Origin: a virus
Taxonomy: Duplodnaviria; Heunggongvirae; Uroviricota; Caudoviricetes
DNA length: 46,253 nt
Direction: 5' to 3' (one strand)
IMG/VR virus record: IMGVR_UViG_2721755496_000003
Location: 1-46,253 of that record
This document shows positions 34,172 to 39,820 of this stretch, one piece after another (position 1 is the stretch's first letter; each line of letters opens with the position of its first letter). The notes below the pieces were generated by a model. The model was not told the origin of the DNA. It was given only the letters and a program-made list of their open reading frames with translations, and searched no databases. The translations under genes were made by a program, and so were the position numbers.

Positions 34172-34471
34172 ATGACATATGAAGTCATCATTACTCCTGA
34201 GGCCGAACAACAGATAATCAACCTGCACAGACATATAACGGAGAAAGCAGGGAACGTCATTGCTGACAATTATGCCAATGCGCTTCTTGATTTTCTTGAT
34301 GGGTTTTCCACATTCCCACACCGGGGCAATAAACGCGATGATATTCGCCAGGGGATGCGGGTAACTCATTTCCGCCACAGAACGATTATTGCTTTTGCCG
34401 TTGATGGCAATAAAGTCTTTATCGCTGGCGTTTACCATGGTGGACAAAGTTATGAAGCCGATTTCTTATAA
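34172..34471 (+). CDS. parE: Type II toxin, ParE/RelE superfamily
   Basis: 99 aa, starts 5 nt after parD; RelE/ParE fold-like sequence. Confidence 0.7.
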   Translation: MTYEVIITPEAEQQIINLHRHITEKAGNVIADNYANALLDFLDGFSTFPHRGNKRDDIRQGMRVTHFRHRTIIAFAVDGNKVFIAGVYHGGQSYEADFL

Positions 34472-34550
34472 ACTTTTACCCACATCATTCCGGTGTTAGA
34501 ATAAACCGTCCGCCCCATCTCTTACTGGCGGATTCGTAGGCTATATAAAT

Positions 34551-34588
34551 AAAAGATCCCGGCTTGTGTTTGCGTCGGGATCTTTTTT
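34551..34588. terminator. Bidirectional intrinsic terminator between parDE and the convergent minus-strand genes
   Basis: gatcccggc-N11-tcgggatc flanked by AAAA and TTTTTT. Confidence 0.5.
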
Positions 34589-34595
34589 CAGTGAT

Positions 34596-34679
34596 TTATC
34601 CCCAGCGACAAATCGAATACACAACCAGAGCCACAGCTATTGCTGCTCCTACCGTTGTGAATGCCTCAGGCCAGGTCAT
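34596..34679 (-). CDS. 27-aa hydrophobic peptide, translationally coupled (ATGA) to the upstream 158-aa gene
   Basis: MTWPEAFTTVGAAIAVALVVYSICRWG; ATG overlaps the TGA of the upstream ORF; not in ORF track. Confidence 0.3.
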   Translation of the reverse strand: MTWPEAFTTVGAAIAVALVVYSICRWG

Positions 34680-35152
34680 CGTAAAACATCCTCTACGCTT
34701 ATCAGCCCGCTCTTTTTCAGATACTCCATCGCATTTTCCGGTAGCTTGCTTGATTTATTAACGCTTTTTAAGGAATGAGATAACCGCTTCACCCACATTG
34801 TTAATTCACATAGTTGTTTACCAGGTTCGCCTTTGCCCTGAAACATGTGCTCACGACTGGACTTCCAGAATATCCATGCCAAATCAACATTCGGATCCAG
34901 GTAATTCATCCCTCCGTTGGCACGAAGCAATAATGCTTCATGGTTTTTATCATCCGCATGGAACCTGATAAGCGATTCGAACTGGTCACGACCGTCATCA
35001 GTCCATGCCACCGGTTCTGATTCCAGCGATGTCAGTGCAATTTTGAATAACTCACCCTCTACTCGTGCCACGCCTGAATTGGGATGGCATTTCGCAATCG
35101 CTATTTTTAATTTAGCTTCTTCGATTAATTGCTCTTTGGTTAATTCAGTCAT
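34676..35152 (-). CDS. Hypothetical 158-aa protein (nin-region)
   Basis: ORF with ATG start; no recognisable family. Confidence 0.5.
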   Translation of the reverse strand: MTELTKEQLIEEAKLKIAIAKCHPNSGVARVEGELFKIALTSLESEPVAWTDDGRDQFESLIRFHADDKNHEALLLRANGGMNYLDPNVDLAWIFWKSSREHMFQGKGEPGKQLCELTMWVKRLSHSLKSVNKSSKLPENAMEYLKKSGLISVEDVLR

Positions 35153-35298
35153 TTTTCATTACCGCCCTTTCGGGCGGCCTCCTGATGATTTGAGGGTGCA
35201 GAAATCCCTCCGGTTAAGGATTAAATTTTATTTACAGAACTTAATTTAATTATTCAGATATACGTATCTGTAACCTTACGAACCTACTCACTGGATGC

Positions 35299-35772
35299 CT
35301 ATTTCATAAAAATAATCCAGTGGGTTTTATCGTTTTTTCCTGTTCGTTGACCGATAACAGGTTTTCTGTCGGTCAGTACCAATATCTGGCGAACAGGTAT
35401 TTGCGTTTCATTCCATTTAAAAATCAGAACTCCGTATGGACGCAACACACGAAAGGTTTCTTTAAATCCCTGCCGCAAATCATCACGCCAGGTATCTTTA
35501 TTCAGCCATCCATATTTCTTTCCCATCCAGGCGTTATCACCAACACGCTCAAGATGCGGAGGGTCGAATATAACCATCGAAAAAGATGCGTCTGCAAATG
35601 GTAGTGCACGAAAATCAGCTATCAGATCAGGACTGATAATCAGGCGTCGTCCATCACACAATGTGTGCTCTTCCTTTCTGATATCGCTAAATATCGCCAG
35701 GTCGTCATTCTTATCGAACCAGAACATGCGACTGCCACAGCACATATCAAGAATGGTTGCCGGTGCACTCAC
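35299..35772 (-). CDS. Small SAM-dependent (probable DNA) methyltransferase
   Basis: Motif I-like ILDMCCGSRMF and motif IV-like FDPPH; GTG start overlapping the upstream stop (GTGA). Confidence 0.5.
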   Translation of the reverse strand: MSAPATILDMCCGSRMFWFDKNDDLAIFSDIRKEEHTLCDGRRLIISPDLIADFRALPFADASFSMVIFDPPHLERVGDNAWMGKKYGWLNKDTWRDDLRQGFKETFRVLRPYGVLIFKWNETQIPVRQILVLTDRKPVIGQRTGKNDKTHWIIFMK

Positions 35773-38900: not shown

Positions 38901-39149
38901 TCAGCGTTTTTCATCTTTCCAAATCCTCATATCAGGCTTGCGCCCGATGAACCGACGAAAACAATTTAAAATCCACCGGGTGAAGTAATCCCTGAAACCA
39001 AAGAGATACCAGGTGAACAGATTCACGATAAAATGTCCGGTCAGAGCCCCACCGATACCACAGGCAAGAACAGTAAAAAAATCATGTAGATTCACATGCC
39101 CCCCGTCATTGTTAACGCCATCCGTGCTTTTAGTGCACCACCACGGCAT
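38901..39149 (-). CDS. Small membrane protein (82 aa) following ydaT
   Basis: Hydrophobic segment FFTVLACGIGGALTGHFIVNLFTWYLFGF; overlaps the ydaT 3' end by 20 nt. Confidence 0.3.
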   Translation of the reverse strand: MPWWCTKSTDGVNNDGGHVNLHDFFTVLACGIGGALTGHFIVNLFTWYLFGFRDYFTRWILNCFRRFIGRKPDMRIWKDEKR

Positions 39150-39555
39150 TACCTGCCGGGCCGCCGCGATTCATCTGGTCATACAAAACGACCGCTGACG
39201 CAACAAAATCGTCGACTTCCTTCACCAGCCGATCCCGCCGTTCGACAATCTCCCGGTAATACTCAGAACTGTGACTGCGCATACGGGCCACCAGCAAAGT
39301 CGGCATTGCCTTTTCGATCGCAGGTAACAACGCCTGAATTTTTTCAACCGCATCAGGAGTGTCTTTCTCCACCCAGCGGAAAATTTTCTGTGTATTACGA
39401 GCCAGGGCTTCCGGATGGCTGTCTTCGTACAGTTCCGGGAACGTCATTCCCAGTTCGAAATAAGCCTGGGTTATTCCAGCTGCTGGAACTTTTTCACCGT
39501 CCGGATACGCCCAGGCATTCATCGCCATGCGGATGTGCTCATGCTTGATTTTCAT
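39130..39555 (-). CDS. YdaT-family protein (CII-like regulator of Rac-type prophages)
   Basis: 141 aa; position and size match Rac ydaT after ydaS. Confidence 0.6.
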   Translation of the reverse strand: MKIKHEHIRMAMNAWAYPDGEKVPAAGITQAYFELGMTFPELYEDSHPEALARNTQKIFRWVEKDTPDAVEKIQALLPAIEKAMPTLLVARMRSHSSEYYREIVERRDRLVKEVDDFVASAVVLYDQMNRGGPAGNAVVVH

Positions 39556-39820
39556 GAATCAAGCTCCTAGAAAATGGTTGTGTTAACGTTTTGGTATCTT
39601 CCAGCTCGGGCCAAATATTCATCCAATCAAAAGGCCTTAGTTGCTGACGTGTAACTTCACCATTACTGGCTCGCTCAATAAGGACACATAACGATGCCCC
39701 TAGCACTTGACCTTTACTCAATGCCTTTCTTAGATAACCGATGCTGGTACCACACTCGTATGCAAACATACGCTGTTCATCTGACGAAAGAGAATTGAGA
39801 AATATTCTTAATTCTTCCAT
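39539..39820 (-). CDS. YdaS-family HTH protein (Cro-like)
   Basis: ...MFAYECGTSIGYLRKALSKGQ...LIERASNGEVTRQQLRPFDW, YdaS-type motif; divergent from the repressor. Confidence 0.65.
   Translation of the reverse strand: MEELRIFLNSLSSDEQRMFAYECGTSIGYLRKALSKGQVLGASLCVLIERASNGEVTRQQLRPFDWMNIWPELEDTKTLTQPFSRSLIHENQA

What the first reader, a model, noticed from the sequence alone, without database searches (positions are those of the whole stretch)
34596..35152. 158-aa protein translationally coupled to a 27-aa hydrophobic peptide in the nin-like region
The 158-aa ORF ends in TGA overlapping the ATG of a 27-aa peptide (MTWPEAFTTVGAAIAVALVVYSICRWG) that is essentially one transmembrane helix; a bidirectional terminator follows. 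ATGA coupling argues that the peptide is translated. Small membrane peptides paired with a soluble partner are typical of toxin or effector modules, and the pair sits beside a bona fide ParDE module, suggesting an addiction/defence islet.
Basis: partly seen in the sequence, partly recalled or inferred. Interest (0 to 1): 0.52.

Follow-up and report, generated by a model that had tools for sequence, protein, structure and literature searches.

The report
Conserved unannotated phage membrane micro-protein gene
The 27-codon reading frame is very probably a real, widely conserved but almost never annotated phage gene for a tiny membrane protein; it is not a dedicated partner of the 158-aa protein, and it marks the edge of a slot where toxin-antitoxin cassettes are swapped in and out.

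Summary
On the minus strand, a 158-aa ORF (35152..34676) ends in TGA overlapping the ATG of a 27-aa ORF (34679..34596). A hairpin that could terminate transcription in both directions follows, then a convergent ParD/ParE pair.

The peptide ORF is a self-contained module with its own Shine-Dalgarno (SD) site. It occurs in 1609 of 5426 complete E. coli genomes, in Stx phages (933W, VT2-Sakai, BP-4795), in P1-like phage-plasmids and in a virulent phage. In about 190 loci, conservation jumps from about 0.55 to 0.93 at the ATG and drops right after the stop. The frame is intact in 179 of 192. pN/pS is 0.26, against 1.2-1.6 in four other frames. No conserved RNA fold exists.

The ATGA-coupled upstream gene falls into five unrelated C-terminal classes, so there is no specific two-gene toxin or effector pair. 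The 158-aa protein is a three-module mosaic of the Ea/DUF551-type accessory block, with no known fold or function.

The window's parDE cassette (33824-34594) starts right after the peptide stop. Most relatives carry hok/sok there. K-12 Qin holds relBE-hokD at the rem-ydfU end of the same slot.

The peptide's function is unknown. Most likely it is a single-pass inner-membrane protein that acts through helix packing.

The parts
34596..34679 (-). 27-codon ORF (stop included) encoding a single-pass membrane micro-protein, MTWPEAFTTVGAAIAVALVVYSICRWG.
   Evidence: Searches show the ORF. It is intact in 179 of 192 related loci. pN/pS is 0.26. The conserved island matches the ORF boundaries exactly. 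The hydrophobic core is residues 6-24. Among 50 distinct peptide variants, A6 and Y21 are invariant, G11, A15, S22 and W26 are 98% conserved and E5 is 96% conserved.
34689..34693 (-). Shine-Dalgarno GAGGA, 9 nt upstream of the peptide ATG and inside the last codons of the 158-aa gene.
   Evidence: One search gives the site. GGAGG or AGGAGG occupies the same place in 94 of 110 distinct contexts.
34676..35152 (-). 158-aa all-helical mosaic protein of the Ea/DUF551-type accessory gene block. It has three modules: A (1-50), B (51-112) and C (118-158). Its TGA overlaps the peptide ATG.
   Evidence: It matches phrog_660 and phrog_924 plus N-terminal-only PHROGs, with no Pfam, NCBIfam or PADLOC hit. 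Module shuffling is visible in the alignment. The AF2 model has pLDDT 52. There is no PDB relative.
34551..34588 (.). Hairpin (stems 34555-34561 and 34576-34582) flanked by an A-run and a T-run; a plausible bidirectional intrinsic terminator that forms the end of the parDE cassette.
   Evidence: It folds on both strands. The same sequence accompanies parDE in L003 and is absent from hok-type loci.
33824..34594 (+). Swappable TA cassette: a promoter-like site (33846-33873), ParD (33909-34166), ParE (34172-34471) and the terminator.
   Evidence: Pfam matches are and the promoter-like site. Homology to hok-type loci stops at 33823 and resumes at 34595. RefSeq annotates ParD and ParE in L003.
35153..35298 (-). 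Conserved 146-nt intergenic leader of the 158-aa gene, with a GCCGCCC-GAAA-GGGCGG hairpin (35162-35177) between an AGGAGG and the start codon.
   Evidence: No sigma-70-like promoter was found on this strand.

Best explanation
The 27-codon ORF is a genuine, translated phage gene. It is an autonomous module made of an SD site plus an 84-nt ORF, and it forms the last cistron of the hypervariable Ea/DUF551-type accessory gene block of lambdoid and P1-like phages.

In this prophage it is probably transcribed with the early-right operon, which runs from the replication genes through the methyltransferase and the 158-aa gene. Co-transcription is inferred from gene order and from the absence of a promoter-like site. 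Ribosomes start at the AUG that overlaps the UGA of the upstream gene, helped by the SD embedded in that gene's last codons. This step is inferred from conserved sequence signals.

The product should insert as a single helix in the inner membrane, with the N-terminus out and the C-terminus in (E5 at the N-terminal side, R25 at the C-terminal side; inferred from the positive-inside rule). It probably acts by helix-helix packing through its nearly invariant small-residue face (G11, A15, S22) and its interfacial aromatic residues (W3, Y21, W26). The partner would be itself or a host or phage membrane protein, during the lytic programme. This step is inferred and no target is known.

The peptide is not a specific partner of the 158-aa protein. 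Its stop codon marks one boundary of a cassette slot that holds parDE here and hok/sok in most relatives; the rem-DUF968 end of that slot holds relBE-hokD in K-12 Qin.
For: Distribution: the sequence occurs in 1609 of 5426 complete E. coli genomes, with up to 7 copies per genome. It is also in 93 phage records, including 933W, VT2-Sakai, BP-4795 and the virulent phage Av-05, and in 181 plasmid records that are mostly non-mobilizable phage-plasmids of about 95 kb.

ORF integrity: 179 of 192 sites are intact, 186 keep ATGA, and the indel variants (23 and 25 codons) preserve the frame. Consensus identity is about 0.55 in the flanks, 0.88-0.98 inside the ORF and 0.83 at the SD.

Selection: pN/pS is 0.26 in the peptide frame and 1.2-1.6 in four other frames, and none of 1000 column shuffles reached the observed value. 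Substitutions within the helix are hydrophobic-for-hydrophobic, while W3, P4, E5, A6, G11, A15, Y21, S22, R25 and W26 are kept in variants as little as about 63% identical. There is no conserved RNA fold (-3.8 kcal/mol, no compensatory pairs) and no Rfam hit.

Autonomy: the upstream gene falls into five unrelated C-terminal classes.

Cassette slot.
Against: There is no direct evidence of translation. No paper mentions the sequence, and it is absent from the supplements of an EHEC Sakai Ribo-seq study. PGAP never annotates it.

The mirror antisense frame has the same pN/pS (0.28) and is open in 65 of 68 alleles.

The loci were retrieved with seeds inside the ORF, which inflates conservation at its two ends, although not in codons 8-20.

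Nonsense mutations at codon 3 occur in a few lineages, so the gene is dispensable for prophage carriage.

The membrane target and the biological role are entirely inferred.
Confidence: 0.6

Rival explanations
1. One reading: the 158-aa protein and the peptide form a dedicated two-gene toxin/antitoxin or effector module, with a membrane toxin and a soluble partner.
For: The ATGA coupling and the TM peptide are real. TA cassettes lie next door. Relatives that share the C-terminal module of the 158-aa protein almost always keep the peptide.
Against: The peptide is coupled in the same way to five unrelated C-terminal classes and nine N-terminal classes of upstream gene. The 158-aa protein is a shuffled three-module mosaic, and many family members lack module C and have no peptide next to them. 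Neither protein hits PADLOC. The co-occurrence with module C is explained by the peptide's SD lying inside module C's last codons.
Confidence: 0.07
2. The peptide is a membrane-damaging toxin of the type I toxin or holin-like kind. It would depolarise the membrane, for abortive infection or lysis timing, rather than modulate a partner protein.
For: At 27 aa with one TM helix, it matches the size and shape of TisB, DinQ and Hok-type toxins (own knowledge) and of the small toxic Salmonella membrane protein TimP (title and abstract of PMC7667032). It lies directly upstream of hok in 108 of 182 loci.
Against: No antisense RNA family was detected. It has no promoter of its own and no structured leader. 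Instead it has a strong accessible SD and is coupled to ordinary early genes. The conserved polar and small-residue motif suggests a specific interface. It is also present in a virulent phage and in loci without any TA.
Confidence: 0.15
3. The 84-nt block is not a gene. It is a conserved DNA linker at a mosaic junction, kept because homologous recombination between phages passes through it, and the ORF is incidental.
For: The block is flanked on both sides by unrelated sequence classes, and the cassette breakpoint lies exactly at its end. There is no experimental evidence of translation.
Against: The substitution pattern is frame-specific: pN/pS 0.26 against 1.2-1.6, and minimum changes of 23, 18 and 39 at codon positions 1, 2 and 3. 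Start, stop and SD are conserved. Indels preserve the frame. Variants only about 63-67% identical in protein keep the helix and the motif residues.
Confidence: 0.1
4. The selected product is encoded on the opposite strand, in the mirror frame that shares wobble positions (YPQRQIEYTT...).
For: pN/pS in that frame is 0.28 and it is open in 65 of 68 alleles. The window has + strand ORFs of 65 and 70 aa across the region.
Against: That frame has no conserved start or stop, and stop-to-stop extents vary from 53 to 97 aa because the flanks are unrelated. It would run antisense to the operon and, in the window, would start inside the terminator. A low pN/pS in the mirror frame is the expected by-product of selection on the sense frame.
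Confidence: 0.03

Closest known systems
Small single-pass inner-membrane regulatory proteins of enterobacteria (AcrZ, MgtS, KdpF, MgrB, PmrR, Blr); own knowledge plus the review PMC12648545 listed.
   Same: The peptide has fewer than 50 aa and a single TM helix. It has short conserved interfacial motifs and a small-xxx-small face (G11xxxA15). It was missed by annotation pipelines.
   Different: There is no sequence homology. The only hit, KdpF, scores 14.6 bits against a cutoff of 26.85. The peptide is phage-borne and multi-copy, its partner protein is unknown, and it is the terminal cistron of a phage accessory block.
Type I toxins: Hok/Gef, TisB, DinQ (own knowledge) and TimP (PMC7667032, title and abstract).
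   Same: They are also small hydrophobic peptides. The peptide is physically adjacent to hok/sok in most relatives.
   Different: The peptide has no antisense RNA, no promoter of its own and no folded leader. It is ATGA-coupled with a strong SD. It lies outside the annotated sok/mok/hok genes: in 933W its stop is 91 nt before sokW and 153 nt before mokW.
relB-relE-hokD locus of the K-12 Qin cryptic prophage.
   Same: It occupies the same genomic slot directly upstream of rem-ydfU (DUF968)-Q. That slot is filled by parDE here and by hok/sok in most relatives.
   Different: Qin lacks the peptide ORF, and the upstream accessory and replication genes are deleted there.
P22 EaA, lambda Ea22 and DUF551 accessory proteins of the lambdoid early (exo-xis or nin-like) regions; PHROGs 660, 924, 60 and 5117.
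   Same: The 158-aa protein shares its N-terminal 'IALASLEAEP' module and its mosaic behaviour with them. The peptide follows these genes in BP-4795, PhiR12, 933W and P1-like plasmids.
   Different: The 158-aa protein has no DUF551 domain and no Pfam match. These families have no known function, so the comparison does not explain what the protein does.
Prophage small proteins that protect by acting on inner-membrane proteins: DicB of Qin (title and abstract of PMC6832061); HK97 gp15 and T4 Imm (own knowledge).
   Same: They are small phage or prophage products whose effect is exerted at inner-membrane proteins. This is the kind of role proposed here.
   Different: There is no homology. By my own knowledge, DicB is a soluble 62-aa protein. 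No exclusion phenotype has been tested for this peptide.

Membership tests
Two-gene toxin-antitoxin or effector pair (158-aa protein plus peptide) | The two genes co-occur specifically and co-vary as a unit. | tested here: not met
   The peptide follows five unrelated C-terminal classes and nine N-terminal classes of upstream gene. Family members without module C have no peptide next to them.
Two-gene toxin-antitoxin or effector pair (158-aa protein plus peptide) | Similarity to a known TA or defence protein family. | tested here: not met
   Both proteins give no PADLOC hit. The 158-aa protein gives no Pfam or NCBIfam hit and no PDB relative.
Two-gene toxin-antitoxin or effector pair (158-aa protein plus peptide) | One product is toxic and the other neutralises it. 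| not testable with these tools
   This needs expression experiments.
Type I toxin-antitoxin (Hok/Sok-like) | A small hydrophobic membrane peptide. | tested here: met
   The peptide is 27 aa with a 19-residue hydrophobic core of mean Kyte-Doolittle 2.1.
Type I toxin-antitoxin (Hok/Sok-like) | A cis- or trans-encoded antisense RNA, plus its own promoter and a structured leader that restricts translation. | tested here: not met
   There is no Rfam match, no conserved RNA structure and no promoter-like site on the strand. Instead the ORF has an exposed conserved SD and an ATGA overlap with the upstream gene.
Small inner-membrane regulatory proteins (AcrZ/MgtS/KdpF-like class) | At most 50 aa, a single TM helix, and conservation under purifying selection. 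| tested here: met
   
Small inner-membrane regulatory proteins (AcrZ/MgtS/KdpF-like class) | Sequence homology to a characterised member. | tested here: not met
   The only NCBIfam hit is KdpF at 14.6 bits, below the 26.85 cutoff. There is no PHROG.
Small inner-membrane regulatory proteins (AcrZ/MgtS/KdpF-like class) | Binding to and modulation of a larger membrane protein. | not testable with these tools
   This needs pull-down or two-hybrid experiments.
Lipoprotein or secretory signal peptide | A positively charged n-region and a lipobox L-[ASTVI]-[GAS]-C, or an AXA cleavage site. | tested here: not met
   By inspection of the sequence, the n-region MTWPE is acidic. Y-S-I-C is not a lipobox, and cleavage there would leave only 4 residues.
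ParDE type II TA (the neighbouring module, not the finding itself) | A ParD antitoxin (RHH) gene followed by a ParE toxin gene in one operon. | tested here: met
   PF03693 matches at 2.5e-7 and PF05016 at 1.7e-9, with a 5-nt gap between the two genes. RefSeq names the L003 homologues ParD and RelE/ParE.

The most novel reading that the evidence does not exclude
The peptide founds an uncharacterised family of phage micro-proteins. The family would be present in about 30% of E. coli genomes, in the classical Shiga-toxin phages and in P1-like phage-plasmids. It would have a specific inner-membrane target and a phenotype such as superinfection exclusion, blocking a transporter or receptor used for DNA entry, or control of membrane energetics during induction. 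In addition, its 84-nt gene would serve as the fixed anchor of a recombination hot-spot through which TA cassettes (hok/sok, parDE) are exchanged between phages.
Probability: 0.25. Interest if true: 0.65.

Novelty: new member of a known kind. Interest (0 to 1): 0.42.

Why it matters
If the peptide is translated, one of the most widespread phage-borne genes of E. coli is missing from RefSeq annotation simply because it is 27 codons long. It can occur in up to seven copies per genome and is present in 933W and VT2-Sakai. It would be a tractable new small membrane protein with natural knock-out alleles (amber or opal at codon 3). Its position gives a precise landmark for the slot where hok/sok and parDE cassettes are exchanged among lambdoid prophages (K-12 Qin holds relBE-hokD at the rem-ydfU end of the same slot). 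That landmark is useful for annotating prophage TA cargo. The result also warns against reading every ATGA-coupled small hydrophobic ORF as half of a toxin pair.

Tried and rejected
- **Pfam, NCBIfam, PHROGs and PADLOC on both proteins:** these returned only function-unknown PHROGs for the 158-aa protein and nothing for the peptide.
- **PDB profile search:** no credible hit; the best, Mpp10 at E 0.0026, looks like coiled-coil noise.
- **AlphaFold2 with a 39-sequence alignment:** the model reached pLDDT 52, so I ran no fold search because the matches would be meaningless.
- **Rfam and RNAalifold:** these found no RNA family and no conserved structure, so I rejected an RNA-element explanation.
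- **Protein database search with the peptide:** Its apparent clustering with DUF551 proteins is a clustering artefact, because those proteins do not contain the peptide.
- **Literature:** the peptide sequence returned no paper, and it is not in the supplements of the Sakai Ribo-seq study. For the CFT073 preprint no supplements are held. SMP7 of CFT073 is a different, 63-codon ORF.
- **Programmed -1 frameshift fusing the upstream protein to the peptide:** rejected by inspection, because neither junction class has a slippery heptamer (junction sequences).
- **Lipoprotein signal:** rejected by inspection.
- **K-12 Qin:** it has the TA slot but not the peptide.

Full report
**1. What is there**

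The window is a Rac/Qin-type lambdoid prophage of E. coli. The closest protein to the 158-aa ORF is a 99%-identical E. coli hypothetical protein. The genes in question are on the minus strand.

Reading downstream along that strand, the order is:
- YdaS-like and YdaT-like regulators
- a DUF1376/DnaT-domain replication protein and a lambda-P-like protein
- DUF1627, DUF977 and an orphan-type DNA methyltransferase
- the 158-aa ORF (35152..34676) and the 27-aa ORF (34679..34596)
- a convergent ParD (33909-34166) and ParE (34172-34471) pair on the plus strand
- a Rem-like ORF, DUF968, RusA and antiterminator Q

The TGA of the 158-aa ORF overlaps the ATG of the 27-aa ORF (ATGA). A GAGGA lies 9 nt upstream of that ATG. 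The peptide MTWPEAFTTVGAAIAVALVVYSICRWG has a 19-residue hydrophobic core, residues 6-24, with mean Kyte-Doolittle 2.1.

Six nucleotides after its stop begins a hairpin flanked by an A-run and a T-run. The hairpin folds well on both strands (-16.9 and -18.6 kcal/mol, z -4.9 and -3.3). Taken alone, though, a 27-codon ORF means nothing: 86 ORFs of at least 20 aa overlap this 5-kb stretch.

**2. The peptide ORF is a conserved, sharply bounded unit**

The 84-nt sequence occurs in 1609 of 5426 complete E. coli genomes, with up to 7 copies per genome, and 162 of the places are on plasmids. tblastn finds it in 93 phage records. These include 933W, VT2-Sakai, Stx1 phages, BP-4795, Min27, Shigella phage POCJ13 and the virulent Vequintavirinae phage Av-05. 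It also finds 181 plasmid records, mostly non-mobilizable replicons of about 95 kb from E. coli and Salmonella.

RefSeq/PGAP leaves it unannotated every time. The gap between the flanking CDSs is exactly the ORF. A few GenBank submitters did call the 27-aa product 'bacteriophage protein' or 'hypothetical protein'.

Two seed searches of IMG/VR, one anchored at each end of the ORF, gave about 190 loci:
- 179 of 192 sites have an intact ORF of 27 codons, or 25 or 23 codons after in-frame deletions. Three have a premature stop, four have lost the stop and six lack the ATG. 186 keep ATGA.
- Across 110 distinct contexts, consensus identity is about 0.55 upstream and rises to 0.83 over the SD. It is 0.88-0.98 from the ATG to the stop and falls back to about 0.55 immediately after the stop. 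The middle of the ORF, which neither seed constrains, is as conserved as the ends.
- GGAGG or AGGAGG precedes the ATG in 94 of 110 contexts.

**3. The pattern of change is that of a protein**

Among 74 distinct alleles, pN/pS is 0.26 in the peptide frame and 1.2 and 1.5 in the other two sense frames. None of 1000 column shuffles reached the observed value. The minimum number of changes at codon positions 1, 2 and 3 is 23, 18 and 39.

One caveat applies. The mirror antisense frame, which shares wobble positions, scores 0.28 and is usually open. However, it has no conserved start or stop, and its stop-to-stop length varies from 53 to 97 aa because the flanks are unrelated. I read it as a by-product of selection on the sense frame.

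Diverged copies keep the helix and the same motif residues:
- BP-4795: MNWPEAFTAVGVAIAVAFILYSLFRWG
- PhiR12: MSWPDAIVTLGMVFAAAFVVYSICRWG
- Av-05: MTWPEAFTTVGVVMAVAFAVYSVCRWG
- P1-like plasmids: MSWPEAFTTVGIVMAAALGLYSICRWW

Among 50 distinct peptide variants, M1, A6 and Y21 are invariant. G11, A15, S22 and W26 are 98% conserved. E5, A17, I23 and C24 are 96% conserved. G11xxxA15 together with S22 forms a small-residue face, which is the classical signature of TM helix packing (established knowledge).

An RNA explanation finds no support. There is no Rfam hit. The consensus fold is only -3.8 kcal/mol, with no compensatory pair.

**4. The peptide is not the partner of the 158-aa protein**

The gene whose stop overlaps the peptide ATG falls into five C-terminal-domain classes with no detectable similarity to each other, and nine N-terminal classes:
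- the window's '...NGLISVEDVLR' module (32 distinct sequences)
- the DUF551 domain '...HWMPLPEPPQEVNQ' (25 sequences)
- an Ea22-like coiled coil '...NIEQEVNR' (7 sequences)
- two single-locus classes

One DUF551-tailed protein is annotated as a dATP/dGTP pyrophosphohydrolase-domain protein.

There are two junction types...GGAGGATnTTTTACGATGA and ...AGGAGGTGAATCAATGA. The second forces the tail QEVNQ/R onto otherwise unrelated proteins. This shows that the SD belongs to the peptide module.

The 158-aa protein is itself a mosaic of three modules: A (1-50), B (51-112) and C (118-158). Relatives carry A+C, A+B or A+linker+B+C. It has no Pfam, NCBIfam or PADLOC match and no PDB relative. Its AlphaFold2 model is all-helical but unreliable, with pLDDT 52.

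I also examined 80 loci retrieved by homology to the 158-aa protein, independently of the peptide. Those that end in module C almost all carry an intact peptide ORF. Exceptions are TAG at codon 3 in L199 (the same allele as L001; L001 is the top hit of the 92%-identical group H1-H6, which includes several O55:H7 strains) and a lost stop in L206. Relatives ending in other modules have no peptide. The association with module C is explained by the embedded SD, not by a functional pairing.

**5. The neighbourhood is a TA cassette slot**

Compared with hok-type relatives (L002, L194), homology covers window 32402-33823 (DUF968 and Rem-like) and resumes at 34595, one base after the peptide stop. The 771 nt in between, carrying parDE and the terminator, are replaced by a 484-nt hok locus. 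L003, a parDE-type relative, shares the terminator sequence.

Among 182 peptide loci with enough downstream sequence:
- 108 have hok in the same orientation, with the CDS usually 211-212 nt after the stop
- 27 have parDE in the opposite orientation (two loci have both and are counted in each group)
- 42 have none of the tested downstream genes

The loci without any TA include the classical early-left arrangement Ea22-EaA-Ea22-[peptide]-ORF4-ORF3-xis-int of BP-4795 and PhiR12, as well as Av-05 and the P1-like plasmids.

In 933W the order is L0139-[peptide]-sokW/mokW/hokW. In K-12 Qin the same slot next to rem-ydfU holds relB-relE-hokD, but the peptide is absent. The bidirectional terminator is part of the parDE cassette.

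**6. How it most likely works**

Shown by the analysis: the ORF, its SD, its start and its stop are conserved as one unit. Substitutions follow the peptide frame. The product is a single hydrophobic helix with conserved interfacial and small residues. The module is independent of the upstream gene.

Inferred:
- The ORF is co-transcribed with the early-right operon. No promoter-like site lies on that strand between the methyltransferase and the 158-aa gene.
- Translation starts by termination-reinitiation or by direct SD-driven initiation at the overlapping AUG.
- The peptide inserts N-out/C-in, by the positive-inside rule (E5 against R25).
- It acts by helix packing with itself or with a membrane protein during lytic growth.

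Its presence in a virulent phage and in early-left operons argues for a role in infection rather than in prophage addiction. Occasional nonsense alleles at codon 3 show that it is dispensable for carriage. A membrane-damaging, toxin-like action cannot be excluded.

**7. Comparison, novelty and verdict**

By class, the peptide resembles the small single-pass membrane regulators (AcrZ, MgtS, KdpF and similar). More loosely, it resembles type I toxins. It is homologous to none of them: KdpF scores 14.6 bits against a cutoff of 26.85. It also lacks the antisense RNA and leader architecture of type I systems.

No paper in the library contains its sequence. An EHEC Sakai Ribo-seq study does not list it.

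I file it as a new, uncharacterised member of a known kind, namely phage-encoded small membrane proteins. Interest is moderate. The gene is real-looking, extremely widespread and systematically unannotated, and it offers a clean landmark for TA cassette exchange. However, nothing points to a new mechanism, and the proposed toxin/effector pairing is not supported.

Noticed in passing
window 33824-34594, compared with L002 2517-3000 and L194: There is a clean cassette swap. The window's parDE plus terminator (771 nt) occupies the place of a hok/sok locus (484 nt) in relatives. The breakpoints lie one base after the peptide stop and at the Rem-like gene. K-12 Qin has relBE-hokD next to rem-ydfU at the same slot.
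   Followed up: yes
window 35153-35298 (-), especially 35162-35184: The 146-nt leader of the 158-aa gene is conserved upstream of other Ea-type genes in phages Rac, ArgO145 and mEp460. It holds a stable GCCGCCC-GAAA-GGGCGG hairpin between an AGGAGG and the start codon. A 4-codon mini-ORF (ATGAAAAATGACTGA, MKND*) overlaps that start. This could be a hairpin-bridged ribosome-binding site.
   Followed up: partly
window 33495-33827 (-): The 110-aa ORF is a Rem homologue. phrog_1212 covers only residues 45-110 and RefSeq homologues are about 90 aa, so the true start is probably downstream of the listed TTG.
   Followed up: partly
loci L010, L011, L012 and similar (IMG/VR); L127, L128: Unrelated DUF551-type and Ea22-type proteins all end in QEVNQ or QEVNR, because the peptide's ribosome-binding site (AGGAGGTGAATCAATGA) is embedded in their last codons. 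This is an example of a downstream gene dictating the C-terminal tail of whatever gene is recombined in front of it.
   Followed up: yes
L001/L199 and L242: Independent nonsense mutations occur at the same peptide codon: W3 TGG to TAG in the background closest to the window (L001/L199), and TGG to TGA behind a DUF551 gene. These are natural knock-out alleles.
   Followed up: partly
L198 (Escherichia phage Av-05, KM190144.1 74413-74493): The peptide ORF, again ATGA-coupled to the preceding CDS (a hypothetical protein here; called 'EaA protein' in the related phages) and again unannotated, is present in a virulent 121-kb Vequintavirinae phage. The module is therefore not restricted to temperate phages.
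   Followed up: partly
window 35299-35772 (-): A 157-aa methyltransferase matches the PADLOC MTase_II (2e-71) and orphan-MTase (6e-49) models and PHROG 'DNA methyltransferase'. No restriction partner is evident nearby, so it is probably an anti-restriction orphan methylase.
   Followed up: no
window 39130-39820 (-): The Cro-position and cII-position genes match the Pfam families 'YdaS_toxin' and 'YdaT_toxin', the former below its cutoff. These Pfam names suggest toxins, but the genes occupy the regulator positions of a Rac-type immunity region.
   Followed up: no
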